Origin: Vermamoeba vermiformis
Taxonomy: Eukaryota
Assembly (NCBI GenBank): GCA_045837725.1
Contig: JBEWZL010000179.1
Location: 682,001 to 741,949, forward strand
Length of the DNA stretch: 59,949 nucleotides
Reading direction: 5' to 3'
The translations under genes and the position numbers were made by a program. How positions within the stretch are numbered: position 1 is the first letter of the stretch; the number at the start of each line of letters is the position of its first letter. The notes under the pieces were generated by a model. The model saw only the letters and a list, made by a program, of their open reading frames with translations, was not told where the DNA came from and made no database searches. Below, piece by piece: positions 3,001 to 59,949 of this stretch.

Positions 3001-3133
3001 TTGTCCGGCACTCTACGCGCAGTTAATTGCACAGTGTTGGGCTCAAGACCCTGAACAACGACCAAATATGGAAAGCGTTATCAGCACTTTGGAGAACATC
3101 GTCAAGCTATCAAAATTTTGGACGGGCATGTAA
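57..3133 (+). CDS. Transmembrane receptor kinase (TKL group, Entamoeba TMK-like) with Ca-EGF and CGNG-x-EECD cysteine-rich repeats; 5'-partial, multi-exon
   Basis: Exons give DIDECADPTLNNC (EGF), CGNGKWDDKEECD and CGNLRLD..EQCD repeats, a TM helix IILIISLVGAAVIVVAGIGIGVLII followed by YRRRK, and kinase motifs LGDGAFGIVY, VAVK, HRDIKPDNLL, DFG and GTPSYMAPE. Stop TAA at 3131-3133. Confidence 0.9.
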
Positions 3134-3190
3134 AATTGGCGTAAAGATCTTTAACCGAAACTTTTTCTGAAGCTTTAAAATAACACCACA

Positions 3191-6100
3191 ATGCTCGCCC
3201 AAGGTTTAACCCTTGTTTTTCGGAGAGTGAAGAATTTACACAGGCCAAGAAGCTGCGCCAATCTTGCAAGCAAAGTCGAATCTGATCTTGGGACGAAATT
3301 TTCCTCTTTTCTTTTAAACCAACGTAGAGGTACGTAGCATACGTGAAATATTTATTACGACGCGACCTTTCTTCCAGCAATTTATTGTAGCAATCCGATC
3401 CGAATCTGACGGTCAAACTCCAAATAACTTTAAATTTATTTAGGATATGCGAAGAGGGTCCAAACCAAACTAACGAATCAAAAGGAAGCTCCTCCTTTAG
3501 TGTTGCCACCGGGTAAGACCAGATTTGCACCTAAAATCAACGGATCCGTTATATTTTCCAGCAATACAAGTACAGCCATAAGAAGCAAAATATTCCGTGT
3601 ATAAATTGAAAGCTAATATTTTGTTCGATAGTTGAACCTGCAGCACGTGCGGTGATACCTGCAAACCGGCAATTCGTACCGTTTGAAGAGCGAACAGTTG
3701 CTTGGAAATTCAACGATCGATGCCAGCCAAATACACTTAAATTTCGCGTGGCTTATTACGGAATTGATAATTACAATGCTGTGACTTCGAGTCAATGGAG
3801 CATCGATGGCAGAGCGCCGATTATAGCACCTTTTTTTAACCGCGATGAAGTGCTGTTGGACATGTTGGGTGGTCTTTACTACAATGTAATGCAGCGTGGG
3901 ACATTTAAACCAAAATATTCTGTCCAAATGCTGACTCCCGGCTCTGGCAAGACACGAATGCTCACTGAGTGGGTCATGCAAGCATTTGCTAACAGAAAAG
4001 TCATTGATGGATTCTTGGCCAACACCACTGACACGCAAACGCGCCGAAAGTTCTTGAACACGTTGTATAGATCAGCGTACAAGCAGCACACAATTCTTTC
4101 GTATGGAAGATCATGGGTTGCCAAAAGTACGGAAGTGACGGATTTGCAGACAGGTATGTTTGACCAATCACATTCAGCTCAGTACTAACTTTGAATAGCT
4201 CTGGTCGACATAGTTATACGAACCATATTGAGTAGGCATTCAGGCCAGTCTATTGAATTTAAAGGCAGACTCATTCAAATCAATCCTGAGACTGCTAAAG
4301 AGTACTTTGGTCTCCACACTCATACTGGAGAGCCAGAGCTAACAAAACTGGTTGCACTGTTTGTGGCGATGGCTGACATCACTTATGAAGACCCTGAAGT
4401 GCTACCCTTCCCACAGGATGGTTTGCTTGAAGGCAAATGCAATGTATTCTTTTGTATTGATGAGTGCCAAGTACGTACATTATAAAGTGATTACAAATCT
4501 AATACATCACCAGACTTTCAGTGAAAGGTTTAAGAGCAAAAACAAAACAGATGGTTTGTATTTGCTGTTTAGAGATGTTGCTGCAAGAAACCAAGAGTTA
4601 ATGGAACAGAATGGAATATCTCCTTTTTGGTTTGCAGTGGGCACACATCTACCTGGCAGATTCTTTGACATTGAAGGCAATCAATCTCAATTTGACATTA
4701 TTGTTCCCTCTCTCAGCAATCTATTGGATGTCAAGTACTTGGTGCAAATATGCAAACAGTACCTCCACTACAAGTTGCCTTCAGAATACTGCAAAGATGA
4801 CACTAGGTATGAGCATAAGTCACTTTTTTTGCTTTACTTAGTACTAAAGGATTCTTCAGTACTCTACCTGAGCTTCCCAATGCTGTGGCCAAGGCACTTG
4901 TTCGTAATTACCTTAAAACTTTTGGCAACCCTCGAGCAGTTGAACGGCTTATCTTTGCAGCACTTACACATCTCAGCACTATACCTGAGTTAACAAGTCA
5001 TGACCTTCGGAAAAGAATTGACAGGTTTGATAAGCAGCTTGATCAAGAGCTGCTCACCATCTTTGCCCCAACAACTCTCACAGGACCCCAGAAGGACATT
5101 GCCAAGCTTAGTATTGCAGCTGCTTTTTGCTGTGACCTGGCATATGACAACCCAATTCGTGGCCTAAAAGTTGCACCAAAGGCTTTGGTCTCTTCTGGTT
5201 ACCTCTCAGTTTGGAGAAGAGAACAACCAAGTAATCCAACAGATGGTTTAGCAAAGTACCATTTCACTCATCCATTCTTCACTTTCACTGCTGCTGAGAT
5301 GGAAAAAGAAATTTTGCAGAGCCAAGTCCAGGAGAGTGAGTATTGGACTCCATACCACATCTCTTTAGCATCTCTGGTGCTGAAAAAAGAATGTGCAGAT
5401 TATTTGATGACACAGATGAAAGGTGAAAGCTTTGAAAAAACTGTGGCTAGCTCATTATATGCTAGATATGTGATGGCATTGAAGAAGCGCAAAGGTATTG
5501 TTAAATTGTTCATTCTTCATTCAACTGACACCAATTTCAGATTTGCTGTTAAGTGACATATTTCCTGCAAAGAATATACCTGCTTTTCTTAGCAACGTCA
5601 TGGTAAGGATTTTCTGCCGGTTGCTACATTTACAAGTTTTTTTCAGGTGAAACTCAATGGAGTTGTCAAATTAAAAAAACATGCCTCCAGTAACTCAAGA
5701 CTGGTGCATGATGCAATAAAGGAGCATAAAGTAGTTGCCATAGATGTTGGAAACTCAAAGATTGCAGATGTGTTACTGCCAATTACAATACCAGGATCAG
5801 AGTGGCAGGTAATTGTTGGTTTTCAATGCAACAAGTACGCTGGAAAAGTAAGTCGCTACTCAAACAAACAACTTACTTAACTATTACAAAATCCTCCCCT
5901 ACAAGACTATTTGAGCAATTGCAAGACATCTCTGAGTCGTGGGGTTTTCTTTGTGGGCATTGCACCTGTCCAACATGCTAATAAGAAGGTAAGCTAGCAT
6001 TAGTCTTTTGATTTTCTAACCAGTATCAACAGTTCATTTCTCAACTCTCTAATGATGAAAGAAGCCATGCTTTTCTTGCTGAAGCAAGTGAGCTAGTCTC

Positions 6101-9167: not shown

Positions 9168-9474
9168 CTTCTAATGATTGCAATACAGCACTTGCTAGTT
9201 ACATTCACGTATTATAGTGGTAAAATATAATAATTGAATTAAATGACTTGTGTGTGTCAGTTATTCGTGAGTAATTTAATTATGCCAAGAGACAGACAAT
9301 TTTTATTTCTCGGCGAATTTCGACGAAATCTCACCACTTAAATTTTTTACTGTGGAGTTCTCTGCCAAGGTGTAGAAATAAATAGTTAAGAGGTCTTATG
9401 TGAACATAAATAATTTATATATGATTACATGAAAACTCGATCCAGGATCAAGATCGATTTCGTACTCGGACGAA

Positions 9475-11510
9475 TTATTGAGCAGTAGGATTGGCAAGGT
9501 TAACTTGGCCAAGACCGCAAGCAGTACCGCACGAATCATAAGGCAAGACATCAGGAACGATGTTGACTTCAGTGGTGACCTTGAACTCGCGCTTCTCGCC
9601 CATTCTGCCGTTCTCGGTGACCTCGTAAGTGAATTCGAGGAAGAACAAGCCCCAACCTTGAGCAGGAGCCGTGCGAGAGGCAGTGTAGATAGCACCGTAT
9701 TGAGGGGTCACTTCAGTGGCGTTCCACTTGAGACCTTGGTAGCAACCAGCTCCAGTAGCGGTGACGCAAGCGAACAAACGGAAGTCACGTTGAGTGGTGC
9801 TGATAGTGTTGGTGGAGTACATGACGACCTTCTTAGGTTGAGTGCCAGAAACAGCAATAATAGAAGCGTCGTCAGTACGAGATGTGGTCTTAACCAAGTT
9901 CCAGTTCAAGTCACGAGGACCGCGCAAGTTATCAACAGCCAAGTGGAAGAAGGTGTCGATGGAGACGAGGACATCAGTCAAGTTGAAGGTCAAATGGAAA
10001 GCATGATCTGCTGCAGGCAAAATGCGCAAGTACTTCTCGCCGCGGAGGTCTTGGAAGAAGAAGTTGGCAGCGTCGGGTTGGAAGAACTCGTCTTGAGATG
10101 AAGCAATAACATAAGTAGGCTTAGGAGTGAACTTGTTGTTGTAGTTGATCGGATCGATCAAAGCAGCCAACGCGTCGAAAGCAGGAGTGTTGAAGAAGTT
10201 CATATTGCCGGCAAGGAACTGAACGAAGCATATCAATATATATACTACCCTAAACAAATAATTAAATAAGTTACTTACGTAGTCAGCGAAAGTCCAACTC
10301 CAACCGCCTAGGGATCTAAAGGCGGAGTTGAGGTTAGGAGTGATGTTGAGGATGGGCATGACGATGGGGATGAAGGCCTCGACACGCTTGTCAATACCAG
10401 CGGCCAACCAAGTGGTCCAGCCTCTCTTAGAAGCACCGCACATAACGAAAGACTTGACTTGAGGGATGTCGAGAGTTTCAACAAAGTCTTGAATAGCGTC
10501 CCTAAAGCATTCGTTAATACAATAATAATAAAAACGATAAGATATGATTCGCTTACATAGCACGAATGGCAGATTTGACTTGGGGGAATTGCAAGATCCA
10601 GCTAGGATCGGAGGTTGACGGGTTTTGCAAAAAGTGTTGCCAAGTGTAAGCGATGATGCCGTCCTCGGTCTTAGCAGTTTGAGTAGGGTCATCGGCAAAG
10701 ACGATGGGTTGGTTAGGGACTTGCTCGAGTTCTGCAATTATTACGTAAAAATAATGCCGGATCACGCGAGATATCTTTTAATTAATTCGGAAGAAGCCGT
10801 AACACCGTTCAGTGAACGAAGATACTTCCGAACATAATTTCGAAACCGTATCGAGAATAATGTCAGAATCAATAACTTACGGGCAGTAACAGCGTCAGTT
10901 CGTTGGCACAAGAAGTCTGTGACACCATCCACAGCGGTCGAGGTGAGATCTGCGTCAGTATTGCTGCCACCATCAATGTACAAGAAAGCGCTCTTGAACG
11001 AGACCTAATTACCGAATTCGGAAATTAGTTCTCCGCGCTCCGTTCCGTAAACGATTCGATTCACTTGAACTTACGGTATCGGGCACGCAAATAGTCAAGC
11101 GATGAGTCCAAACGGGCTTGGAGGACTCGGCAGAGGTCAACCAAGTTTGCGAGGTCAAGTTGAGGAACTGGAAAAGTATCGCGTGAGCCAGATTTACGGA
11201 TCACATAATTTACCAAAAGGTCCCATCGATGTCACATCAACAATTTGATCGAATGAATAATACTCTCCATTAGTGACTTTAAATGACGAGAGGACAACGC
11301 GGGCGTTGGAAATTTGGTATGAGATCCGAGTCTTGTTCGGTATGCACTTACGAAAGCGGTGTAAGAGCTGCCACGAACAGAGGCCATGGTGGTGAAGTCG
11401 TACGAGTAGTCGTTGTTGTTGATGTATTGCTCCAGAGGAGTACGCTTGGCAACGACACCGAGAACGACAACGGTGCAAAGTAGAAATACGAGGAGTGCTT
11501 TGGATGTCAT
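9475..11510 (-). CDS. Secreted PqaA / AprA-family protein (PhoPQ-activated pathogenicity-related, alpha/beta-hydrolase-like)
   Basis: Signal peptide MTSKALLVFLLCTVVVLGVVA. Family motifs LNLTSQTW, YIDGGSN, QVPNQPIVF, EDGIIAYTW, GASKRGWTTW and DEFFQPD. Confidence 0.9.
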
Positions 11511-13070
11511 TTTGAGGGGTACTGAGGTATCAATAAGTTGGATGTGGCTTATTGACGTGTGGTTGTGGGTTCGGGTTTGTTTTTGATTTAATCCAGCAAC
11601 AACACCCGTATTTATGCGTACTTGGCTCACAAGTCACGTTTTGTGATTCTAGATAAATTTTGTTATCTGAAATAGCCTTCTTGGACCTCCTACGAACTCT
11701 TGTCAGTAAACTCATATTACAGGCGTAGGCTTTACTTTGTTCGTGTAATATCTAAGCGGTCTGAGGCCTCTTGATGCAGATCCTGGCTCCGTGTCCCGTG
11801 ACGAGAATTAATTTTTATCTGGCAACGTAAAGAATAAAAACTTGGGAACCTGTCACTTATTAGTTTTTATCTCCTCGTGAGATTACGCGTACCTTAATAT
11901 AGCGTGCTTTGGTCTTGGCCTGGCTAGTTCAGTTTGGTTTGACACATCAATGGGACGCCGTCTTGGTCCTGATGTATAATTGCAAGGTTACCAAGAGTCG
12001 CGTAATTTTATACAGAGGCCTATACTTACTACTACTTATAAAGTCCTTGGAGAACTACAGTGTTACATTCGATGTCAGAACGACCGGAGATCCGGATGTT
12101 CTTGCGAGTCCACAATGGTAGTAATTAAAGTGAAAAATTGGGTTTTTTTTTTTTGGTATTTTTAATAAAAAAAAATCGCGATTACTTGCTTTGCAGAACG
12201 GACATTAATGCGGAGGCGAATTAGGCTGGAAGGCAGCTGCTGTTGTGCCTCGGGCAGCAGGACAAAACAAAGAACGACGAAGTAGGTTATTTTTAATAAT
12301 GACATTCGATAAGTTGCGTGAAAAGAGGTCGATCGCTTTGAGGGCGAGATGTCGCAACAGATTAAATTTGATTTAAAAGTAATCATAAAGAGAAACAAAT
12401 AATACGAATATTTTCTATATAATACTAATTCTAATTGATATTAAATAAGTCAAACGTACCAAACAAACCAACGGCTAATCCGGGATTGGATGAGGCTGCC
12501 AACTCATCGAGGCTGCTAATACGTCGAATTGCGAACACTTTTAAAAGATCTTGTGGCAATTTCGCAGCAGTTTTACGAAATTACTCTTGAAATGACCATC
12601 CGCGGATGTTGCAAAGTTAGACCAGTGTCGTTCCGTATAAGAAGGCAGTATTAATCAAGATAAGGTTGGCCAATATAAATACTATCACGGTAATATTGTA
12701 AATCTATTTGCTTCGCTGGCTAAATGTTCGGTGGAATTTTGACTTTTTATTTCAGACCCAACAGCAGAAACAAACGACGAAAGAGGAGCTGATCCGCAAG
12801 AACTCTAGCAAATAGACTTAGGATACCATTAAGTCACTTGTATATTTAACCCGTTCCTCCGCTAGAGTTATTTCGATCGTAACCACTGATCCAAATTATA
12901 ATTATTGTTTCAAATCGCTGTAAGTTCTTACTTGCGAATTATGTATTAAAATACAATAATATTAATAATATAATTATAATATGCGGATTAATTAAATTTG
13001 AATTGAAACACAAGACTGATCGAGTTTTCTAGCGTCTCGTAGGTAGATGTACTGCACTCACTTATAAACA

Positions 13071-16000
13071 ATGACGGACCAACGAACACTCTCAGTATCG
13101 AGTGGAAACAACGCAATGACAGACGCACTAGCGTCGGATTCAACTGGTAATTTCCGTTTCGAATCCCTTTTACTCCTTCGACGGCAAATTTCAAACAATA
13201 TCGTGACGATTTTTATAAAATTAATACCTGTATACTCATCTATAATACTCGAATAATGCCAATTTCGATGATTTAAATTTATTCGAAGCGTAATCATGCG
13301 AAGATTTTGTCTAATTTATAAATCATGCAGCGGGGCCTGACAGTACCGACTTTCGAAATCTACGAACAAAGAGCTCAGAATTGCCCAATTCAAATATTAA
13401 GAGCGGAGGACTCAAATTAGGCATAAAGGATTCGCACAAATCCGGACCTACGATTCTACCGTCGAGCGAAATTAATTCAGACGTATCCCCTAGGACTAAG
13501 GAACTGTAAGTTGATGCTTACCATGACCATGACCATGTCGAGAAAATTTTCTTGATTTAATGCCGATAATCTTGCGACTTTTCTGGAAGCGAATTGCCAT
13601 TTATAAACAAATCGACGAGTATAATTTTCTAAATTAAAATTATTATCGAGAACGTACTATCATTGGCTGCCAACATAACGGCTATTCCTTCCGTTCGGAA
13701 CAAGCCAAACATTTTTTGCTTCCGTCATTAATAATTTCGACCTTCGTTTCCGACTGCAGTTTATTAATAATTAATATAAGGTATGGATTAAATCCTCCTA
13801 AACGTGCCCCGCCATCGGCACCGAATGCGGGACCAACAACAAGTGATCCAAAGACTTCAGCTACGCTTGGCGGCAAAGTTCCAACTTCACTCGCTAAAAC
13901 CGCGGCACCGCCACCTCCACCACTCACGAGCAAACCTAAGCGATCAATTCCTACACCTGTTCAACCTGGCGCTGGTGCTGCTGGCGTGCAGCCCCCACAA
14001 CAGCCGCAACAATGGACCGCTGCTCCTGCGAAGAAACAGCCCATTGGCTCTTCACCGCGACAATTACCGACACTGCCGCCACGGCCCAACGATCAAATAT
14101 CACCACGGTCCAATCCTAGTGTACCGAAAGTCACGAGCACTCCACCACAATCACCGCGTGACCAACCAGACAGTGGACCGGCAGCTGTACATACTCCCAC
14201 CAAAGCTGTCACCGCTGCACTGACGACACAATTGGCGCAAGCACTGCCCGCGCAGTCAGGACCCAGCTCGGGAAGTCCTACAGCGAGTGCACCGACTTCA
14301 CTTTCAGCCTCAACCAATTCATCTGTTCAAGTCACACCAGCGAGCACTCCTCGCCCTGCATCGAGCGAGCAAACTGTACCTGAGTTAAGCGACGCGGAAA
14401 AAGAGAAGTTGCGTCGTATTGAGAAGAAGAAGGCACGCATTCGAAGTATTTTAGAAGCACACGCAGAAGAGGTGAAGAAACTCGACTTGAACTCTTATGA
14501 CGTCAAGAAAGCCACGCTGTGTCAAAGTGTGATTCGATCGTGGTTCGCGAAAAATGACTTCAAGCTTATGAGTACGTCATTGTTATAATTACAATACTAA
14601 CTGAGTTATTAACAACGTTTGATGTTTAGAGGAACAATTCAACCTTAGAACGCACTTAGTCAAAGAAATTCTGAGCACTGAACAGTTTTATTTGCAATGT
14701 CTCAACACCCTTGTAAAAGTAAGTCAATGTGCTACCCGCCTATTAGATGATTATAATTGACCGTTTCTACGCAGATATTTTTGTTACCGCTTCGAGAGAC
14801 GGGCATTAGGAATGCTCAAGAAGCGTTTATTTCGTTAGACGACGTGCGAATTATTTTTGGTTCAGTGGAAGTCATTTATAACATCAACTCGGAGTTTTGT
14901 AAAAAATTGGAAGAGAAGGTCGCTAATTGGTCCGTGCATCAAAAGATCGGCTCAGTGTTCTTGTCAATCGTAGGTCTTGCTAACAAATTGATTACGTGTT
15001 ACTTACGGCTTTCCCAGGGTCAATTCTTGAAAGTCTACACGCAGTACATTAACAACTATAATCAAGCCATGTCGCGCTTAGAAGAGTGCAAGAAAAACAA
15101 ACTTTTTGCACAGTTCGTGATCGACTGTAAATCATTGCCCAAAGTCGAGTTAGAGCTGCCATCTTACTTGATCATGCCTATCCAACGTATTCCTCGTTAC
15201 CAATTGCTGCTAGACGGCCTTGTTAAAGCCACACCGAAAGACCACCCCGACTACAATGACTTGTCCAATGCTTTGAAACAAATCGTGTCCGTGGCTGATT
15301 ATATGAACGAGCGCAAACGAGATGTCGAGAACATTCTGCACATGACCAACTTGCAAGGCCAAATGATGTACAAAGACGAGAAGTTTGTCGTAAGTAGAGA
15401 CATTCTAGTTTGGAACCCAAGCACGTGCCCTAATCTCGTTTTCTTAGCCTATTGTTAGTCCTACGCGTCGGTACCGAAGAGAAGGAAATTTTGAAGTTTA
15501 TTTTAACGGTGAAAGAAGTCCTTTCGGTTACATCTTCCTTTTCACGGACGCCGTGCTGTTCACGAAGCAAAAGAAGAAAGGTTATTTGTTCTTCTCGCTC
15601 GTGTTATTGAAAGACATCAACGTCACTGAAGGCACCAAAGAAGGTAAGATTACAATACGGCAAAGTATAACAAACGTAGATTTGATTCTGATGCCCTTTG
15701 GAAATTTCATAGAGCGCCCAGCCATTTCACTGCTCCACGAAGTGAACAATTACATGATTGTGTTCCCCGACAAAGACGAGCGACAGTTGTGGATGCAAGA
15801 CATCGAGCCCAAACAAAATCCGCAGCTCGTCGTGCCTTCACGCGAATCAGTTGAAGTTACAACAGCCTTCAAGTGGACCGACCCTGTCTCACCCCGCGGT
15901 AACGTGAGTTCACCGCGCGAATTGTCGCCCAACACTAGTCCCTTAACTGGTGAAGCTGACAAGAAAAAGTAAGTGCACTAGACAGATCTAAAATTGAAAT

Positions 16001-20200: not shown

Positions 20201-23200
20201 TATATTAATGTGCCTATTTAATATAGAGAACGACAAGGCTTCTATCAAGGCGTAATTTACTCGCTGAGAACTCTTTGCAAGCTGTTCTGTCGTCAACACA
20301 AACAACCACTCTCCATTGACTTGTTGTCGCATTTCTATCGCGTACTAGAAAATGTAAGTACTACTGTCTATTATAAGCCCTGAATAAGCAACAACGAAAC
20401 TTTATCAAACAACTCTCCAAGATCCAGCAGTTCCTAATGAGATGTTTTGTATAGGGCCTTCATAGCGAGAAAGAAACAGTGCGCGACACAGTTCTCACGC
20501 ATGCACGATACATTTTCTCGCTCGGTTTGCCCGGCGCATCAGTCCTAATTGCCGACTTCTTGCGCGAGATTGCCAATGTGTTTTCAAATCGTCCATCGAT
20601 CACCGCGGACATTCAACGCCACTGCATCACCATCCTCAACTCGCTCATCTCGTACCCGCTGCACTACGACGGTGTCAACTTGCCGGACTTTGCAGCACAG
20701 CGTGACATGCCTGCAGCTGATTTCAGAGAATTCCTGTCGAATATGATCTTAGGCGTGTTGAACAATCCTAGCTTGGACGTGATGGCGCGCCAAATGGTCA
20801 TGTGGGGCGTGTGCGTCATGTTGTTCGAAGAGGTGCGCACTGCTCAACCAGGCAATCAGCGCATGCACGTTGTGACTGGTGCACTGCAAATCTTGCTCGA
20901 ACAAATCAAAAGCAAAGACGAGCCCATCGCCATCACCGCCACTGAGGTATTACCAAATATAGTAATGCTGTGTCATTGGTATTGACACGTTCTTCTGTAG
21001 GTCTTGAACAGTTTGACGACATTGATTGACAAGTTCAACGTCTTGGATCCGAATCTTTCGTACTCAGTAGTCTCTATTATTTGCGATAACATCAATTACT
21101 TGATGAATGATGGAAGTGCTTTGTCTTCGAAAGGTATGTCCGTTTGGTTTTAGAAACTTATACTACGGGTGCTAATGCATTGCCATTACAGAGAAAATCA
21201 TCGCCGAAATGTTTTTGTGCTTGACGAGCTGGTTGACAAGCAATTCCAACGTGTTCTTGACCGATCCAGAACTCGCGACCAAGATCTTCCAAGTTGTCGA
21301 GTTTGGCCTGATCGGCAAACTGGTGCGCACTAACATAACATCCATTTATCGATTTTCTATTAACATCCTTTTCAGGGCGTTGATCTAACGAAAAAAGTTG
21401 AGTTGGATCCAGTTTTCAGCCAAAAAGTTGAAGAAGATGACAAGGACGACAAGAAGAAACGCGGCGAGAAGAAGAAAGACAATGCTAGAAACACTATGCG
21501 TGGCATTAGTGTTCAAATCCAATACGAGACGTTGCTCGACAAACTTTCGCGACAACCTCTGCACGGATCCACCGCCATTCAACAAGCAGCTGAACAGTTC
21601 TTATTCACTGTCATCAACTTCTACAACAACTATCCCACGCCTGCCGGTCCTTCTCAAATCGAATCGAGCGAGCCTGATGAGGAAGAGGGTGCTGTTTTCT
21701 TCGCTCACTTCGAACGACAAATTCTCTCAATCTTGCAAAAGTACGCTATTTAGATCACTCTTACCGAGCTTAACAAGTTACGATGTATAAGATACTAACG
21801 AGTTGTATCTAGGGTTGACCCGGCTACTGGCAAGATGATGGCACGATTGACTGTTCGTGATCCGTTCGGCAAGTTCGTGTGGGACTGTGAAGCTGATATG
21901 GCTGATGTCAATGGTCTAGTTGACGCGTCTTATCGCCCGCCTGCTCAGCTTAAGTCACAGAACGCTAGTGGCTTCACACCTGCTGACAACTCTCCGTGCC
22001 CGATCTCCGACGCTTTGACAGGTCTGTGGGGTTCTCACCGCGAAGTATTCGATAGCAAGCTCCCCGCTGCTTTGCACCCTGCTGCAACTCGTCCTGAATT
22101 CGCTTCAGAAGTTACTGCTGGTCGCGGGCTTGTTGACGGTGTTGTCGGTCAAGACACTACCACGCTGCAATCATTCCACGAGACACGTGCTCCCATTGAC
22201 CCCTCAAAGCCCTCGGGTGTGACTCCCACTCACCTTTCAAACTTCAACGCTGGTAGAATGTTCTTGAACTCGCTTGGCTACTTGAACAACTCACACCGCC
22301 GTGGACTTCATTTCATTGAGGACTCAGCTCGTCTGCGCCGTGCCTTGACTGATTTGGACCGTGTCAAAGGTCGCGAGTTGATCAAGGTCGGTTTGGTCTA
22401 CGTGGGCGAAGGGCAAGAAGATCAATCTTCCATCTTGGGCAATGACAACGGCAGTCGCGAGTACCATCAGTTCTTGAAGGGACTCGGCTGGCCCGTTGAT
22501 TTACAAGCTCATCAAGGCTTCAGAGGTGGCTTGCATCTCGACGGCAGTGCTGGTACTGCTGCCCCGTACTACGCCAATGATCGCTTCGAATTGATCTATC
22601 ACGTGGTCTCTTGGATGCCCACGAAGGAATCCGATCCTAAGCAGATCTCAAAGAAGCGTCACGTGGGCAATGATCACGTGCACATTATTTGGAGCGAACA
22701 CAAGCGAGACTACGATCCCAACGTGATTGTGTCGCAGTTCAATGACGCCCATATTGTCATCTACCCGCAGCCTTCCGGTCTCTTCAGAGTGCAAATCTTC
22801 CGCAAAGAGAAATTGAAGCTGTTCGGTCCTCTCATGGACGGCATGCTCGTCAACAAGCAAGTGCTCTCGGACATGATCCGTTTGACAGCTGTCAATGCCC
22901 ACCGAAGTGTCAGATACGGCCAAAAGGGCTATGAAAATCCCTACGTGACTCGTATCAATTACATCCGCGAAGCTACTCGTCGTTACAAACAACCCAAGCC
23001 CAGCGAAGAGTTGTACGCCAAGTTCTTCGGTCTCAAACCCGAGTACCGCACTGCTCAACCCGCACTTCCCAACTCGACTGCCAACTCGACTGCAACGATT
23101 GGCTCATCTTCTCTAGCGACCTCGAACGGCAATGTTCCGCCTCCAAACAGAACTTCTAACCCGGCACAACCTCAGCCTAGCGTGACAAACTCACCGCCAC

Positions 23201-23988
23201 AAGGCAATTTGCAGTCGAATGCACCGTTGCAGCGAGCACCGTCGTCACCAGCCATACCACAGAACTACAGACCTCCACAAGGCACGCCTCCTCCAGGCCA
23301 AGGCGGTGTTCCTCCACAAGGCATGCCTCCTCAAGGAGTGCCTGGTCATCCCGGTATGCCTCCTGGTTTCATGCCTGGTCCACCAAAGGGCTTCGTACCC
23401 GGACAGCCACCTCCACACGGCATGCCTCCAGGTATTCCACCTGGTGCTCAACCGTTGCCTCCTGGCATGCTACCGAAGGGTTTCGTTCCTGGTCAGCCTC
23501 TGCCACCTGGTGTACAGCCTTTACCACCAGGTATGGTGCCTAAGGGCTTCGTGCCTGGTCAGCCACCACCACACGGCATTCCTCCTGGCGCTCAGTTCAC
23601 GATGGCAGGTCCTCCAAAAGGATTTGCTCCCGGCCAACCTCCTCCAGGCATGCAACTGCCACCTGGTGTCCCACCTCCCGGCATGCCCCCTGGAATGCCA
23701 CCCAAAGGTTTCATGCCCAATCCTAACCAAGGCGGCGCTCCCCCTCAAGGCATGCCTCCAGGTCCCGGTCCTAATCAAGGCGGACAGCCTCCCATGACTC
23801 GCGCTGTTTCGACTGGTCAGCTGAACAACCACATGATCAACCAACCTCCAAAGGGATTCATTCCTAATCCCAATCAAGTGCTACCTCCTGGCGTTAAGCG
23901 ACCTCCTGGTCCACCTGGCCCCGGTACTCCTCCGCCAACAGCACTGAACAAATCCGGATCAGTCTCACCTCGACCGAGCAATCAATAA
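17275..23988 (+). CDS. RALGAPA: Ral GTPase-activating protein alpha subunit-like (Rap/Ran-GAP domain) with Pro/Gly-rich tail
   Basis: N-terminus MLNKVFGK..KKRVTTF..KRWKSLIKII. GAP motifs KVGLVYVGEGQED, FLKGLGW, GFRGGL and KKRHVGNDHVHIIWSEH. The last exon is 21813-23988. Confidence 0.85.
23380..23875 (+). repeat. Coding repeat: six PKGF(V/A/M/I)P(GQP/NPN) units in the RalGAP tail
   Basis: Read directly from the translation of ORF 21835-23988. Confidence 0.85.
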
Positions 23989-54537: not shown

Positions 54538-56035
54538 AGTCGCAGAACGGTAACGCACGTGTCCGCTTCCGGATTTGGAATAATATTTGTCTGATTTTCA
54601 TGAACGAGAATTTTATATAAGATACACGTAAGTACATTATCGCAGAGAGAATCAAATGATGACTCTAGAGTTCGTCTGAGTATTGTTGAGTGCTTTCGTC
54701 TTCTTGGGGTTCAGCGATCCGGCGAGCACTTCGGAGATTGTAATCTAGTGTTACGTTGATAAAGAACTGACATAATAAATGATTACTTACGATTTGTGTT
54801 GTTGTTATTTGGACCAGAACCAAGTTAGCAATGCGTCGGTCTTTTGGTGTTCGTTACTTACTTCCTTGAGCGTTGCTGGCATTTGTGTTTGACACTGCCA
54901 TTCAATAATGTTAGAAGGATAACTTAACTGATCGGCTAAGTTATCCCACCAAATTTCTCGCAGCAAATTAATTTGATTTAATTAATGTTTGAATATTTAT
55001 TAATACTATAATTATCACGAGCCTAATGTCTATAATATATATTAACTAAATTTGAAACTATGCCGTTCTTTGTTTCTTTGATTTAGAATTTTTACGCGAG
55101 ATCTTGCGACCTCGCTTCCTCTTCAGTGGTGCTGGAGGTACCACTTCTGTTGTCATATTTTGATCAGTCTCATCTTCTTCAACAGAAGTATTACTTGAGC
55201 TTGAATAGTCACTGTCATCATCAAACACTAGCTTTGATGTGGTGTAATATAACGGTGAGATCTACGCTCCTTTCGCCATTATCTCCGTCCCAGAAATTCT
55301 TTCCTATTTTAGGCAACTTTATGTGAATCGGATCTGCCATAAATAGCGTTCCGAAATCTTGTATTAGTGACACACTTGTAGTAAATAAACCAACACACGT
55401 CATTATAACAAAGTAAGACTTTTATTACATTTGGCGACACCGTGTTTAACGTACCGCTCGCAGACATGGCTGAAGAATTCGGCAAATCTGTCAACGAGTC
55501 AGCGCGTAAAAAGAATGGGCTAGACCCTAGAAGAGAGTCTACTTTTGACGTGACTACAAGTGAGTTCCTCCGTTATATTTGTTGTCGTGGAAATTTCTGA
55601 CCAAGATCCAGTCAGCGAATCACCGGATTCATATATACTGTAGGGCCTGGCCATATAGGGCTAGCCCTGAAAAATAAAAAATATTGTTGAAAAGCTATTT
55701 ATTTACAACTGTACAAAAAAACCCCAATTACCCAGGAAAAACCAAAACTGTACTAATCGTGTGCTAATTATAGTACTGTATTAGAACAGTCAAGGCACAG
55801 TACAAAGCAGACAGATAATTGTATCAGTGCATGTAACAATAAAAAATACTAAGTTTTACAAGCAAAAGTTTTCTGTAGTCGTACTAAAACAGTAATTGTG
55901 CAGTATTGAAAGTGTTCTAAATATTATGATTTATTATGTATGTATTTTGTGCTCAAACAAATTCAAAACTGTTCTAAATCGATCGCAAAGCGACAATTTT
56001 AAAGCGATTTAGAACACCTTTAGTACAGTTCAAAT

Positions 56036-57284
56036 TTAGCCAGCGTTAGCACTGTTTTGGGTTGGCTCTGGAACAGGTGGTGCTGCAGCAGCAGTAGGTA
56101 CCTCTTCAGGGTTCGTCTCCGCTTCTTCCCGTGATAAGAATACTCCTACAATTGTAATTAATTAGCAAAATGTTTTGAAACAATTGAACAACTTACCAGA
56201 GTCGTACACTCCAACAGCATTAATCAAACGCTTCTTCTCTTTCAAGGTCAACTTGTAGAAATCGCCTGTTTTTGTCAAAGCTGCTTTGCATATAACTGCT
56301 CCAATTGGAAGGGAGTCATGCTGCATTTTGTGTGTGAAAAGAAGCTGATCTTTGGGCTCAGCTTCAAACCAGATAACTTCTAACTCCCCAGCATCAGCAC
56401 GGCAGTCAACGACTTGAGCAAGCCAAAAGTCTTCTTCTGCAGTTTCATCAGGCAAGACACATATAACAGAGTCCAGAGGATAGCATGCAACTTAAAAACA
56501 AATTAGCACAGTTATAGTATACCGGCGGTACATTTTAAGTACAGTTGTAGAACATACCACGCTTTTTGTCTTCAGCAGTTACTTCGCGAACTTCTCCATT
56601 GCTTTCATTTTCCTTTTCTTGTTCTTCAACAATTTGAGATTGTTTTTGCTTTTTCTTTTCTACTCGAGCAAATTACTATTATGGCAATTATAATGAAAGG
56701 AACTTACTCTTTTTGTTAGTACTTCTAGGCCGAGCAGCTGCAGTGGGCTCCTCTTGAGTTACTCGGTTGAATTTCGCTTGATCTAACAATAAAACTTGAT
56801 TAAACAGTGCAGTATTGCAGGTAGTTTTAGAACAGTTTTAAGCCACCTATAGAACGGTTTTAAAACACCTATAGAACGGAACATACCAGGAACTTTAACT
56901 TTTTGAGCATGTCGCTGATTGTTGAGACACTTGCGAACCACGTCATATATTACCTCACCACTAATAGATTTTCCACAAAACCATTCTTGATGCATTTTAA
57001 CCGCCTCGGAAATTGTTTTTTCGACGAGGTTACCAGGTTGCTTATTAATTGGCTTGGTCAAATCAAAATCACTGCTAATTATTCGGTTGAGGTAATTCTA
57101 ATTTTTAAATATTTTTAGAAAATTGTGCAACGATAATAAAATTAATTTTCGTGAAATTATTTTTATAAGAATTTTAACTTACGCGCATCAAGTTAGGAAT
57201 TCTTTGCCGCTTAGATACAGGCTCCTCATTGCTAGAGTCTGACTCTTGTTCAATAGTGCGTTTACGTTTCGTGGTCTTCGACAT
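56036..57284 (-). CDS. Orphan nuclear protein (NLS, helical domain, C-terminal Tudor/BAH-like beta-barrel); 6 exons
   Basis: MSKTTKRKR..SKRQR; helical exon FDLTKPINKQ...VVRKCLNNQR; beta-rich exon DSVICVL..EEDFWLAQVVDCRADAGELEVIWFE. Canonical splice sites join in frame to the stop at 56036. Confidence 0.7.
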
Positions 57285-57441
57285 TGTTTCGAAAAAAAGT
57301 ACATCCATTTTATATATACTTGGGGTTGACGGACGTTTGGGTTATGGAAAAATTACTAAGTCGAATGGCCAACACATTATATATATAGTTAGGCTTAGCT
57401 AATTTAAGGCTTATAGGCCTAAAGCCTGGAAAATGTCATAT

Positions 57442-59759
57442 TTTTGAATAAACGTTATTTATTTTTGAATATACAATTATGCGTAAAATCAGTACTATCT
57501 TTGTTTTCCCAATTTTGAATCACAAACATTGTTTTCCCATCCATTTGCCTTGGCAGGTTTACAATGAAGACTGAGCCTAAAGTTAAGGAACTTAGTTTCA
57601 TCGGTAACTATTTTGAATATGCATACTTACAAAATGTCTATTCATTTGTATGCACGTCCAACTGGTAGAGTGCAGAATTCTCGATCAACCGTAGTCCAAG
57701 GACTACGATCAAATGCGGAATTCCTGACTGTGCGTAGTCCAAGGACTACGGTCAAATGCAGAATTCTTGACTAACCGTAGTCCGAGGACTACGCTCAAAC
57801 AAAGAATTCTTGAAGACCTGATGTGTACCAGCCTAATCATGAAGGGTCAGAATATTTGAATATGCAAAATAGTAAAATGTATATTCATTTATACCTGTGG
57901 GCCAGTCATCTACGGCGAGTGGTGGGAGGTTGCAGCGACCGAATCTAACTCCAACTGAATATCTCTAAAGAATAAAAGAATGTCAATATTTTGAATATGC
58001 AAAAAAAAATAGTGTCTATGCATTGTCATAGGGCACTACATTGACTTTAACAATTCCTCGAGTGTAGTCCAAGGACTACGGTCAAATGCAGAATTCCTGA
58101 CTGAGCGTAGTCCAAGGACTACGGTCATATGCAGAATTCTCAACTAACCGTAGTCCAAGGACTACGGTCAAATACAGAATTCTTGACATACCTGAAAACA
58201 GGCAAAGCAGCTTAATTGTCTCCATGACCTGTAGAAGGGTACATAAGTAATTTTGAATATACATTAATTAAAAGTGTATATTTAAAAGTTTGTAAAGATA
58301 ATGTGACCGTAGACCAAGGACTACGGTCAAATGCAGAATTCCCAACTGAGCGTAGTCCAAGGACTACGGTCAAATCAAGAATTCTCGACTAACCGTAGTC
58401 CAAGGACTACGCTCAAATGCAGAATTCCTGACAACAGGTCAGGGTTATACCATATACTTTGAGCGTAGTCCAAGGACTACGGTCAAATACAGAATTCTCA
58501 ACTAACCGTAGTCCAAGGACTACGCTCAAATACAGAATTCATGACATATTTGAACAGGGGGAAACTGCCCAAAGCTATAACAGGTGACCTGAGAAAGGGA
58601 ACGTAAGTTACTTTGCATATACATTAATCTAATTTGTCTATTCAAAAGTTTGAAAAGATGATGAAACAACCGTAGTCCAAGGACTACGGTCATATGCAGA
58701 ATTCTCGACTAACCGTAGTCCAAGGACTACGCTCAAATTCAGAATTCTCAACTGAGCGTAGTCCAAGGACTACGGTCAAAGATTCACACCTATAACCCTG
58801 AAGACTTACATAACCCTAACAGTGCAGAATAAGTCCAAACCATCCAATACAGCCATCAGATATTACTTGTGTGCTATAGTAAGGTAGATTAGCATCAGAG
58901 TGACAAAATAAAGAATCGAATTTGAATATTTAAAAAAAAATAATAACTATTTATTTTTGTGGGTCCGCATTTGATTACTTACTGCTGCAATGAAAGGAAG
59001 CCATGCAGATACAGGTGTTCTTATATATTCTATAGTGGTGTTGTTGGCAAGTTGAATGTAACAGAAAATGAACAAAAAAATCTTTTTTTGGTCAAGCACG
59101 TGATCGATGCTCGTTAAAATCTGACCAATGCACGCACTGCCAACCTCCTAATACACTTCTCAAGGGGCACATCAGTAGTGTGCTACTATTCAAATATGTA
59201 AGAGGTCAAGGAGAGGGCCCATTGGTGAGGATCCGATGGTCAGCCGATGTTGGATCGAGATCAGGATTTGCCAATTTCAGTCTGGTGGCTTCCAGTAAAG
59301 TAAGTAATCCAAGAATATTAATATAAATATTAACTACACTATGTGGTTAAACTGGTGGCATTATCTGCTACTATATAATAAAATAAATATTTAATAAAAT
59401 CAAATCTAGCCGTTACCAAAAACTTTATAACTTTTTGTTAGCAGTTCGAGCCAGTAAGTATCAAATTCATAGTGACAATAATATGAGTATTATGGTAAAA
59501 TTAATGTCATACTTGTAGGATAAATGGTAAGTGAGATTTTGCCGATCCAGAGGCTCGTGCACGATCCAGGATCAATCAGTGTGGAGCTTCAGTGACCACT
59601 GGTAAGTTTGAAAACACACTCAAATAATTAACTACAGTGCTCTAATACTAGTTGTCAGGTCAACAGAAGGCAGCAAGAGCTGGTTAAGCAGATCCAGACA
59701 AGTCGAAGCTGTATTTTTTGAATATACAAATAAATATTTTGAATATTCATTTTTGTACA
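57442..59759. repeat. Dispersed inverted-repeat motif TTTTGAATAT(A/G)CA-N11-TGT(A/C)TATTCA(A/T), about 8 copies
   Basis: Copies start at about 57442, 57611, 57855, 57989, 58251, 58611, 58921 (degenerate) and 59717 (spacer 12). Confidence 0.85.
57671..58780. repeat. Clustered 43-bp palindromic tandem repeat, 14 hairpin cores in 5 clusters
   Basis: Consensus TGCAGAATTC-YYRAC-T(AAC/GAG)-CGTAGTCCAAGGACTACG-(G/C)TCAAA. Clusters at about 57671-57812 (3 cores), 58060-58187 (3), 58305-58432 (3), 58460-58545 (2) and 58668-58780 (3). Confidence 0.97.
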
Positions 59760-59949
59760 AACAAATTTAGTGTCTGTATGAGTGATAGTTGGTGGATATA
59801 TCTTTCTACATTGGTCGCAGGTGGTTTTTGTTGAAGTTTGTGGGATTGACATGTCCCCATGTTGAAAATGTTTGATGTCCTGGATCGCAGAATGCTGAGG
59901 TTCTCTCTGCCTTTGATAACCCTGCAAAGGACCATTGCTCTTAGTGTTC

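What the first reader, a model, noticed from the sequence alone, without database searches (positions are those of the whole stretch)
57671..58780. Modular array of 43-bp hairpin units that can switch between two pairings
Seen: 14 cores CGTAGTCC-AA-GGACTACG, spaced 43 bp apart within five clusters, with a GAATTC-centred linker. The flanks come in two types (left AAC/GAG, right GTC/CTC) and are often crossed. As a result, adjacent units form a larger near-palindrome centred on GAATTC: TGAGCGTAGTCC..GGACTACGGT-linker-ACCGTAGTCC..GGACTACGCTCA (e.g. 58347-58415, 58460-58528). The period is not a multiple of 3 and reading through successive units hits stops, so it is unlikely to be coding. Inference: an iteron/origin or recombinase/transposase-binding platform, or a processed structured RNA of a mobile element. 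It is architecturally reminiscent of baculovirus hr palindromes (EcoRI-centred) and of GTAG-type REP/BIME mosaics, but no homology is claimed.
Basis: partly seen in the sequence, partly recalled or inferred. Interest (0 to 1): 0.85.

Follow-up and report, generated by a model that had tools for sequence, protein, structure and literature searches.

The report
Multi-copy repeat with phased palindromes
Just upstream of a gene in a microbial eukaryote lie 14 copies of a 43-bp unit built round a perfect 18-bp palindrome; the stretch belongs to a larger repeat present many times in that genome and is most likely the repetitive end of a mobile element, not a gene or a structured RNA.

Summary
There are 14 cores CGTAGTCC-NN-GGACTACG (0.01 expected by chance), at 43-bp spacing in five clusters, each unit but the last with one GAATTC. 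(1) Each cluster is preceded by a second imperfect inverted repeat (TGAATATRCA-N11-13-TGTMTATTCA). "Inverted repeat plus three units" is itself a duplicated module, and there is a 360-bp super-module. (2) The window is eukaryotic nuclear DNA. (3) Everything from about 57307 to the window end is multi-copy in the source organism. Summed contig depth rises from 238-670 to 9,300-14,600 at 57307. Other copies have different flanks at 57307 and 57371-57376. A relative in a water metagenome diverges from the window exactly at 57308. The "two pairings" hold thermodynamically but are generic to tandem palindromes. The crossed flanks are inherited through module duplication, and there is no covariation. 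My best reading, at about 45%, is the internally repetitive end of a DNA-transposon or foldback-like element whose phased palindromes bind a dimeric protein. No element gene, terminal inverted repeat or target duplication could be seen. Interest is moderate to low.

The parts
57307..57670 (+). Left, non-array part of the multi-copy repeat. The outer boundary is at about 57307/57308 and a second boundary lies at 57371-57376. Both are followed by ATT(T)TATATATA. It holds four TTTTGAAT motifs and the first copy of the second inverted repeat (57604-57646).
   Evidence: X1 summed contig depth is 238-670 left of 57307 and 9,600-14,600 in 57308-57613. X3 depth is 3.3-3.7 against 11.7-20.3. The X1 unique contig (record 2) ends at 57336. 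Loose ends with different flanks lie at 57307 (X3), 57371 and 57374 (X1) and 57376 (X3).
57671..57813 (+). Cluster 1: 3.3 units of 43 bp, with cores at 57690, 57733 and 57776.
57847..58024 (+). Spacer with two copies of the second inverted repeat, at 57847-57889 and 57982-58024. The only perfect copy is TGAATATGCA-N11-TGTATATTCA at 57857-57887.
   Evidence: (D2, I2)
58060..58187 (+). Cluster 2: 3.0 units, with cores at 58063 (T at core position 1), 58106 and 58149.
58225..58303 (+). Spacer with a copy of the second inverted repeat at 58244-58286. It is 80% identical to 58585-58663, 360 bp further on.
   Evidence: D2, D3
58304..58428 (+). Cluster 3: 2.9 units, with cores at 58308 (A at core position 6, which breaks a pair), 58351 and 58394.
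58460..58546 (+). Cluster 4: two units, with cores at 58464 and 58507. They are homologous to units 2-3 of cluster 2 at an offset of 358 bp.
58585..58663 (+). Spacer with a copy of the second inverted repeat at 58604-58646.
   Evidence: D2, D3
58668..58780 (+). Cluster 5: 2.6 units, with cores at 58671, 58714 and 58757.
58781..59949 (+). Right part of the repeated region, without 43-bp units. It has two more weak copies of the second inverted repeat (58913-58955 and 59709-59751). No convincing coding frame was found. The window ends inside it.
   Evidence: X1 depth is 1,250-3,300, about 5 times the left flank. X3 depth is 0-7.9, with 0 at 58736-58939. One X3 contig joins 59753 back to 58248, which is a different module order. 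Also (D2). Searches found no family or real homologue for the two longest frames.
56000..57284 (-). Neighbouring intron-containing host gene. Its ATG is at 57284-57282, with an upstream in-frame ATG at 57308-57306. It is at unique-depth. The repeat begins about 23 bp upstream of its start codon.
   Evidence: depth 238-670. No Pfam family was found.

Best explanation
The array is the internally repetitive part of a multi-copy element, most likely the end region of a DNA transposon of the long-end or foldback-like sort, or a non-autonomous derivative of one. In this genome it lies about 23 bp upstream of a host gene's start codon.

Shown:
- The sequence from about 57307 to the window end is repeated in the source genome.
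- Other copies join different flanks at the same boundaries.
- A close environmental relative diverges from the window exactly at 57308.
- The region is built by nested duplication: a 43-bp unit, then a module of one imperfect inverted repeat plus three units, then a 360-bp super-module.
- The 18-bp core is far better conserved than the linker.

Inferred:
- The perfect 18-bp palindrome (two 8-bp half-sites, 2-bp centre) is a double-stranded binding site for a dimeric protein, most likely the element's own transposase or recombinase.
- The 43-bp spacing (about four helical turns) and the 8-bp AGAATTCT palindrome midway (about two turns) put all sites on one face of the helix. Many protein dimers can then load side by side and mark the element's end, as proposed for multiple transposase sites in long internally repetitive ends.
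- The alternative long hairpins between neighbouring units are a by-product of tandem palindromes, not a designed switch.
For: Multi-copy:
- X1 summed contig depth is 238-670 over the flanking gene (56900-57307). It is 9,300-14,600 over 57308-57817 and 1,250-3,500 over spacers and the right part.
- In X3 the left flank is 3.3-3.7 and 57308-57817 is 11.7-28.
- 418 X1 contig pieces lie on 3,050 bases (264 at 99% or more, 154 at 95-99%), and 123 of them fit two places.

Discrete ends with different neighbours:
- Loose ends 'before' 57371 and 57374 (X1) and before 57376 and 57307 (X3) each have a different preceding sequence.
- X3 record 10 (231 letters) follows the gene up to 57308 and then leaves the window sequence.
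- Other copies diverge after 57652 (X1) and 57909 (X3), and one X3 contig joins 59753 to 58248.

The repeat is unique within the window.

Modular nested duplication: D1-D3; four modules, 77% mean column identity.

Constraint on the core: 2 of 162 variant cells in the core against 31 of 225 in the linker, counted in the nine internal units.

Directionality: 9 of 11 TTTGAATA motifs in the region, and all units, point the same way.

Not coding and not a known RNA.

Precedents:
- Galileo transposase THAP domains bind sites in the tandem repeats of its long terminal inverted repeats (PMC3688188, abstract).
- Tetris is a modular foldback element whose terminal inverted repeats carry internal tandem repeats (PMC4079207, abstract).
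Against: - No transposase, Rep, recombinase or any mobile-element family appeared among the 26 frames scanned. These were the eight largest ORFs of the window and 18 frames from 49.6 kb onwards.
- No inverted copy of the left end lies in the window, so neither a terminal inverted repeat nor a target-site duplication was seen. The other end, if any, lies beyond 59949.
- The depth is a sum over contigs and is not a copy number. The X1 and X3 ratios differ 5- to 10-fold. Array bins are inflated by the 14 local copies.
- There are two boundaries (57307 and 57371-57376) rather than one, which also fits a mosaic of duplicated blocks.
- The unit was found in no other collection: viral contigs 0; JGI metagenome contigs gave 3 single unrelated matches; prokaryote genomes gave 1 single match. 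So there is no comparative support.
- Protein binding is wholly inferred.
Confidence: 0.45

Rival explanations
1. A non-mobile duplicated block. This would be a satellite-like or subtelomeric/heterochromatic mosaic that spreads by unequal exchange and segmental duplication, and the palindromes would have no sequence-specific role.
For: - Nested tandem duplication is the visible mode of growth.
- There are two different left boundaries, and the module order varies between copies.
- The repeat runs to the window end, and an X1 contig (record 8) stops within one base of it, as at an assembly break in repeats.
- No element gene was seen.
Against: - Clusters hold only 2-3.3 units and are broken by spacers, so they are not long homogeneous arrays.
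- The core is much better conserved than the linker, which neutral satellite drift does not predict, although gene conversion could produce it.
- A close relative differs exactly at the 57308 boundary next to an otherwise identical gene (records 9-10 show 0-2 differences in 215 letters). This looks like presence/absence of an insertion.
- No telomere-type run lies in the region.
Confidence: 0.28
2. A host cis-regulatory array. Clustered palindromic sites for a dimeric transcription factor would drive the minus-strand gene that starts at 57284, or a gene to the right. The element would at most be the vehicle that brought them.
For: - The array lies 390-1,500 bp upstream of a start codon.
- The perfect palindromes are phased at whole helical turns, and the core is conserved.
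Against: - The same sequence occurs many times in the genome with other flanks.
- A close relative has a different sequence from 57308 on, next to the same gene, so the gene does not depend on the array.
- A gene-free stretch of more than 2.6 kb is unusual for this compact window.
Confidence: 0.1
3. A source of structured or small RNA. The arrays would be transcribed, and the long inter-unit hairpins or the local hairpins would be processed, for example into small silencing RNAs against the repeat family.
For: - As single strands the units fold very stably: dyad 58343-58419 at -41.7 kcal/mol as RNA, z = -10.6.
- All nine adjacent pairs fold more stably together than as two separately folded halves.
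- Each cluster is preceded at 56-78 bp by the same motif, which could be a promoter element.
Against: - No compensatory change: the 3 core variants are one wobble-compatible change, one pair-breaking change and one loop change.
- The bases beside the core pair in only 3 of 14 units.
- Rfam gave nothing at gathering score, and only generic hairpin matches of 18-24 bits against cut-offs of 60-100.
- Stability is a trivial consequence of palindromes.
Confidence: 0.08
4. An origin or enhancer of an integrated or episomal virus-like element, working like baculovirus homologous regions. A viral dimeric protein would bind the repeated palindromes and drive replication and transcription.
For: - Clusters of 2-3 repeats with palindromes and EcoRI sites, AT-rich surroundings (GC 0.376 against 0.428), and several dispersed copies. 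This is the general layout described for homologous regions (PMC4535591, abstract and introduction).
- Depth relative to the flank differs strongly between the two DNA sources, as a variable-copy element would show.
Against: - No viral family among the 26 frames scanned.
- No match of the core or of a degenerate unit pattern in 2.9 million viral contigs.
- The EcoRI site is not at the centre of the main palindrome.
- The repeat is joined to chromosomal genes.
Confidence: 0.04

Closest known systems
Foldback-like DNA transposons with long, internally repetitive ends (Drosophila Foldback, Galileo, Tetris)
   Same: - Multi-copy, modular elements whose long ends hold short tandem repeats and exist in rearranged forms.
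- The tandem repeats in Galileo's ends carry further transposase (THAP) binding sites (PMC3688188, abstract).
- Tetris is modular, rearranged and seeds satellite-like arrays (PMC4079207, abstract).
- Galileo copies show tandem-repeat expansion in their terminal inverted repeats (PMC4168063, passages read).
   Different: - No second, inverted end, no target duplication and no transposase was seen here.
- The unit here is a 43-bp repeat round a perfect 18-bp palindrome, whereas the repeats named in those papers are about 140 bp and about 220 bp.
- The host is a microbial eukaryote, not an insect.
- No sequence similarity was tested or claimed.
Non-autonomous Helentrons carrying satellite-like central repeats (Cg_HINE, DINE-1)
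   Same: Dispersed non-coding elements made of conserved flanking modules plus short tandem arrays, which spread such arrays round a genome (PMC7492417, abstract; PMC4067079, search listing only).
   Different: - Helentron ends and their terminal stem-loop could not be looked for without the other end.
- Here the arrays come in five short clusters interleaved with a second inverted repeat, not as one central array.
Baculovirus homologous regions (hr)
   Same: Dispersed clusters of two to eight repeats that contain an imperfect palindrome, many with EcoRI sites, in AT-rich DNA. They act as enhancer and origin through repeated binding sites (PMC4535591, abstract and introduction).
   Different: - In hr the repeats centre on the EcoRI site. 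Here the main palindrome is centred on AA, and GAATTC sits in the linker within only an 8-bp palindrome.
- The setting is eukaryotic chromosomal, with no viral genes and no viral-contig match.
Bacterial REP/BIME mosaics
   Same: Short palindromic units that occur in alternating orientation with short linkers, so that neighbours can pair. The REP features are recalled, not taken from a call.
   Different: - REP/BIME are bacterial intergenic elements tied to a RAYT transposase. This window is eukaryotic with spliced genes.
- One scan of prokaryote genomes found a single isolated core.

Membership tests
Foldback-like / long-terminal-inverted-repeat DNA transposon | Many dispersed copies with discrete ends next to unrelated flanks | tested here: met
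   One search shows a depth step at 57307. There are four loose ends with different flanks at 57307 and 57371-57376, and 418 X1 contig pieces laid on 3,050 bases. Depth is not a copy number, and only 12 of 20 loose ends were shown.
Foldback-like / long-terminal-inverted-repeat DNA transposon | Two long ends in inverted orientation | not testable with these tools
   No inverted copy of 57307-57670 lies in the window. The window ends inside the repeat, and no genome is held.
Foldback-like / long-terminal-inverted-repeat DNA transposon | Short tandem repeats inside the end region | tested here: met
Foldback-like / long-terminal-inverted-repeat DNA transposon | Target-site duplication, and a transposase in complete copies | not testable with these tools
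   Only one end is visible. No transposase family appeared among the 26 frames of the window that were scanned.
Non-autonomous Helentron (HINE/DINE-1 type) | Characteristic termini, a subterminal stem-loop at the 3' end, and a central tandem array | tested here: inconclusive
   Tandem arrays and conserved flanking sequence are present. The termini cannot be judged from one boundary, and the other end is outside the window.
Baculovirus homologous region | Lies in a baculovirus genome | tested here: not met
   The window holds Rap_GAP, RhoGEF, GH79 and PhoPQ_related genes with introns. There was no viral family and no viral-contig match.
Baculovirus homologous region | Repeat unit centred on an imperfect palindrome of about 24-30 bp with the EcoRI site at its centre | tested here: not met
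   The 18-bp palindrome is centred on AA. GAATTC lies 10 bases beyond the core, inside an 8-bp palindrome in 9 of 14 sites. The hr description comes from PMC4535591 (abstract and introduction).
Bacterial REP/BIME | Bacterial intergenic location and a cognate RAYT gene | tested here: not met
   The window is eukaryotic. Prokaryote genomes gave one isolated core match.
Classical satellite DNA | Long, homogeneous head-to-tail arrays | tested here: not met
   At this locus there are five clusters of 2-3.3 units separated by spacers of 31-246 bp. Longer arrays elsewhere in the genome cannot be excluded.
Any curated RNA family (Rfam 15) | Match at the family's gathering score | tested here: not met
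   There were 0 matches at gathering score over the whole window. Eight sub-threshold microRNA-precursor matches scored 18.5-24 bits against cut-offs of 60-100. No tRNA was found.

The most novel reading that the evidence does not exclude
The arrays mark an undescribed class of mobile or episomal element of a free-living microbial eukaryote. Its ends would be recognised through extruded hairpins or cruciforms: the 18-bp palindromes and the 69-bp inter-unit palindromes. The recognising protein would be a structure-specific enzyme, such as an HUH-type nuclease or a recombinase. Alternatively the arrays would serve as a repeated origin/enhancer in the manner of viral homologous regions. In either case the two alternative pairings would be functionally used.
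Probability: 0.08. Interest if true: 0.65.

Novelty: new member of a known kind. Interest (0 to 1): 0.33.

Why it matters
If the best reading holds, this is one more lineage-specific repeat family: a mobile-element end packed with phased binding sites. It would be useful mainly for annotating and masking this genome, for explaining why the assembly breaks here, and as a marker of insertion polymorphism between strains. It would matter more if complete copies turned out to encode an unusual transposase or a hairpin-recognising enzyme. The 18-bp perfect palindrome repeated at whole helical turns would then give a clean system for studying how many protein dimers assemble on a transposon end.

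Tried and rejected
- Whole-genome copy count: no genome is held for this window.
- RNA evidence: no RNA holder was listed. Two RNA raw-read runs labelled with the same organism (X22, X24) laid 0 reads on 56900-59949, including the flanking gene, so this is no test.
- Relatives elsewhere:
  - Core in viral contigs: 0. Degenerate unit pattern in viral contigs: 0.
  - JGI metagenome contigs: 3 single matches with unrelated flanks.
  - Prokaryote genomes: 1 single match.
- Spurious-ORF trick: two frames across the repeat (57568-57774 plus strand, 58082-58267 minus strand) found no candidate in the 5.8-billion-protein index.
- Coding potential right of the array:
  - The 84-aa frame 59072-59326 had no hit.
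  - The 97-aa frame 59655-59948 (minus strand) had 5 hits, all to internally repetitive proteins through several weak stretches. I judged them spurious.
- Terminal inverted repeat: no inverted match of 57307-57670 in the rest of the window beyond the short TTTGAATAT-type motif.
- An 11-bp inverted pair, TCAGGGTTATA at 58439 and 58791, flanks the second super-module. By my own estimate about 0.8 such pairs are expected by chance in 2.65 kb, so I do not use it.
- Telomere-like motifs are not clearly enriched.
- Taxon: two Atlas look-ups showed only that the genes are eukaryote-like (Rap_GAP) or have bacterial-looking relatives (PhoPQ_related).
- Earlier findings of this scan: none by place, sequence or words.
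- Literature: a search for both core halves as strings returned 64 papers. The 10 listed were unrelated by title, apparently coincidental matches. A search for 43-bp, palindromic and subterminal repeats gave analogues only. Supplementary files were not consulted.
Full report
- A search for CGTAGTCC-NN-GGACTACG with up to two mismatches gives 14 matches, all between 57690 and 58774. Chance expectation is 0.01, and none of 100 shuffles reached 14.
- Tandem Repeats Finder reports a 43-bp period in four blocks: 57671-57813, 58060-58187, 58304-58428 and 58668-58780. A fifth cluster of two units has cores at 58464 and 58507.
- GAATTC occurs 14 times between 57675 and 58742, once per linker. CAGAATTC occurs 11 times there and nowhere else in 59.9 kb.
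- The flank types are as described. The left triplet is AAC x7, GAG x5, GTG x1, GAC x1. The right triplet is GTC x9, CTC x4, ATC x1.
- The two quoted near-palindromes exist: arms of 24-26 nt, 92% complementary, 21 nt apart (I23 and I5). By my reading of the listing, GAATTC is half a base off their symmetry centre, and the linker is palindromic only over AGAATTCT.
- No frame longer than 68 aa crosses the array.

**2.

(a) A second repeated element.
- TTTGAATATRCA occurs six times, all on the plus strand and all between 57464 and 59728, against 0.01 expected.
- It is the left arm of an imperfect inverted repeat, TGAATATRCA-N11-13-TGTMTATTCA. Seven copies were found by the repeat finder (D2), and one is perfect.
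- A copy lies 56-78 bp before the first core of four of the five clusters.

(b) The clusters are not independent.
- Four modules of 'inverted repeat + variable spacer + three units' align over their whole length, with 77% mean column identity.
- 58225-58303 recurs at 58585-58663, 360 bp on, at 80% identity (D3).
- The region therefore grew by nested duplication: unit, then three-unit module, then 360-bp super-module.

(c) The setting is eukaryotic nuclear DNA.
- Rap_GAP, RhoGEF, GH79 and PhoPQ_related domains are present.
- Frames are broken by GTAAGT/GTATGT-type introns.
- A spliced minus-strand gene has its ATG at 57284-57282.
- No genome is held for the window.

**3. The decisive result: the region is multi-copy.** I laid the contigs of a DNA run of the source organism (X1) and of a water metagenome (X3) on 56900-59949.

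| Run | Left flank (gene) | 57308-57817 | Spacers | Right part 58838-59949 |
|---|---|---|---|---|
| X1 | 238-670 | 9,300-14,600 | 1,650-3,500 | 1,250-3,300 |
| X3 | 3.3-3.7 | 11.7-28 | 2.1-13.8 | 0-7.9 |

- The array bins are inflated by the 14 local copies. The non-array stretch 57410-57613 is not repeated in the window, yet it still shows 9,600-14,600 in X1.
- 418 X1 contig pieces lie on 3,050 bases. 264 are at 99% identity or more and 154 are at 95-99%. 123 fit two places. That means many slightly different copies.
- The unique X1 contig (record 2) runs to 57336. That is what a 31-letter-word assembly gives if the repeat starts at about 57307. The word length is my assumption, taken from the index description.
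- Contigs that match from 57307 (X3), 57371 and 57374 (X1) and 57376 (X3) onwards each have a different sequence before that point.
- X3 record 10 follows the gene without a difference up to 57308 and then leaves the window sequence.
- Other copies leave it after 57652 (X1) and 57909 (X3). One X3 contig joins 59753 back to 58248. X3 has no depth at 58736-58939.
- Both left boundaries are followed by ATT(T)TATATATA.
- Caveats: the depth is a sum over contigs and not a copy number. The X1 and X3 ratios differ 5- to 10-fold. Only 12 of 20 loose ends were shown.

**4. The 'switch between two pairings'.**
- Folded as a single strand, the dyad 58343-58419 prefers the long inter-unit hairpin. As DNA it scores -23.6 kcal/mol (z = -9.7). 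As RNA it scores -41.7 kcal/mol (z = -10.6).
- All nine adjacent unit pairs fold more stably together than as two separately folded halves: -31.1 to -40.7 kcal/mol against -21.4 to -30.3. Eight of the nine use cross-unit pairing, whatever their flanks.
- This is what any two tandem palindromes with a 2-nt centre must do. The crossed flanks add only 2-4 pairs.
- The crossed pattern (GAG..GTC followed by AAC..CTC) sits at the same positions of the duplicated module, so its recurrences are copies by descent.
- Within a unit, the bases next to the core are G/G x6, C/C x4, C/A x1 and complementary C/G only x3. This argues against selection for a longer local stem.
- The core varies in 3 of 252 cells: one change that would still wobble-pair in RNA, one that breaks a pair, and one in the centre. 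There is no compensatory change.
- In the nine internal units the core differs from consensus in 2 of 162 cells and the linker in 31 of 225 (Fisher p = 3.5e-6; cells are not independent). So the sequence of the core is held constant, by constraint or by conversion.

**5. What it is not.**
- Rfam gives nothing at gathering score. It gives only generic microRNA-precursor look-alikes at 18.5-24 bits against cut-offs of 60-100. There are no tRNAs.
- None of the 26 frames scanned against Pfam carries a transposase, Rep, recombinase or viral family.
- The two longest frames right of the array have no real relatives.
- The core and a degenerate unit pattern are absent from the viral contig collection.
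- JGI metagenome contigs and prokaryote genomes hold only isolated cores with unrelated flanks.
- No inverted copy of the left end lies in the window.

**6. Most likely mechanism (confidence about 0.45).** The stretch is the internally repetitive end of a mobile element of the DNA-transposon or foldback-like kind, or of a non-autonomous derivative. It lies about 23 bp upstream of a host gene's start codon.
- Shown: multi-copy state, shared boundaries with different flanks, a difference from a close relative exactly at the boundary, modular nested duplication, one-way orientation of all motifs, and a conserved core.
- Inferred: the 18-bp palindrome is a duplex binding site for a dimeric protein, probably the element's own. 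Spacing of 43 bp (about four turns), with the AGAATTCT palindrome midway (about two turns), puts the sites on one face of the helix, so many dimers could load side by side and mark the end.
- Precedents: Galileo transposase THAP domains bind sites within the tandem repeats of its long ends, and the authors propose that multiple sites give specificity (PMC3688188, abstract). Tetris is a modular, rearranged foldback element with tandem repeats in its ends (PMC4079207, abstract). Non-autonomous Helentrons spread short arrays (PMC7492417, abstract).
- Rivals:
  - A non-mobile duplicated or subtelomere-like mosaic (0.28). It is favoured by the two boundaries, the absence of element genes and the window ending inside the repeat.
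  - A host regulatory array (0.10).
  - A source of hairpin or small RNA (0.08).
  - A virus-like origin/enhancer (0.04).

**7. Comparison with known systems.** It works most like the long repetitive ends of foldback-like transposons. Membership cannot be claimed, because the second end, the target duplication and the transposase are outside what I could see.
- It is not a baculovirus homologous region. The host genome is wrong and the EcoRI site is not at the centre of the main palindrome (description from PMC4535591, abstract and introduction).
- It is not a REP/BIME, because the window is eukaryotic.
- At this locus it is not a classical satellite, because the clusters hold only 2-3.3 units.

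**8. Verdict.** I rate it a new member of a known kind: a dispersed modular repeat, probably borne by a mobile element. Interest is moderate to low (0.33). The architecture is neat and the family appears undescribed in the collections searched, but nothing seen requires a new mechanism. The most novel reading still open is an element recognised through extruded hairpins, or a repeated origin. I put it at about 0.08.

Noticed in passing
window 57308-57306 and 57284-57282 (minus strand): The repeat boundary at about 57307/57308 coincides with an in-frame upstream ATG of the neighbouring minus-strand gene. The next ATG, which opens MSKTTKRKRT..., is 23 bp inside unique sequence. Whether the repeat supplies this gene's promoter or 5' end is open.
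   Followed up: partly
window 58439-58449 and 58791-58801: An 11-bp perfect inverted pair (TCAGGGTTATA / TATAACCCTGA) brackets the second 360-bp super-module. Similar AGGGTT-type strings occur in loose ends of other copies. About 0.8 such pairs are expected by chance, so it may mean nothing.
   Followed up: partly
window 59700-59949: An X1 contig (record 8) stops within one base of the window end. The window probably ends at an assembly break inside the repeat.
   Followed up: no
window 58736-58939: This stretch has no depth in the water-metagenome relative X3, although both sides are covered. That indicates a structural difference between copies or strains just right of cluster 5.
   Followed up: no
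window 9475-10737 (minus strand): A PhoPQ_related alpha/beta-hydrolase frame (Pfam E = 1.3e-52) lies in an otherwise eukaryotic window. The nearest Atlas clusters are all bacterial or viral. It could be an old gene transfer or simply sparse eukaryotic sampling.
   Followed up: no
window 23437-23564 and 23272-23332: 66-bp and 18-bp tandem repeats lie in the GC-rich, proline-rich tail of the Rap_GAP frame 21835-23988.
   Followed up: no
window 56828-56879: A 22-bp tandem repeat (2.4 copies, 90% matches) lies in what looks like an intron of the minus-strand gene next to the array. TAGAAC-type strings recur in that gene's other introns. On the coding strand some of them read as GTATGTTC-type splice donors.
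   Followed up: no
L002 1-560 and 1078-1095: This metagenome contig holds one isolated core-like palindrome and is otherwise full of degenerate TTTAGGG/CCCTAAA telomere-type repeats in both orientations. It is unrelated to the window's array.
   Followed up: partly
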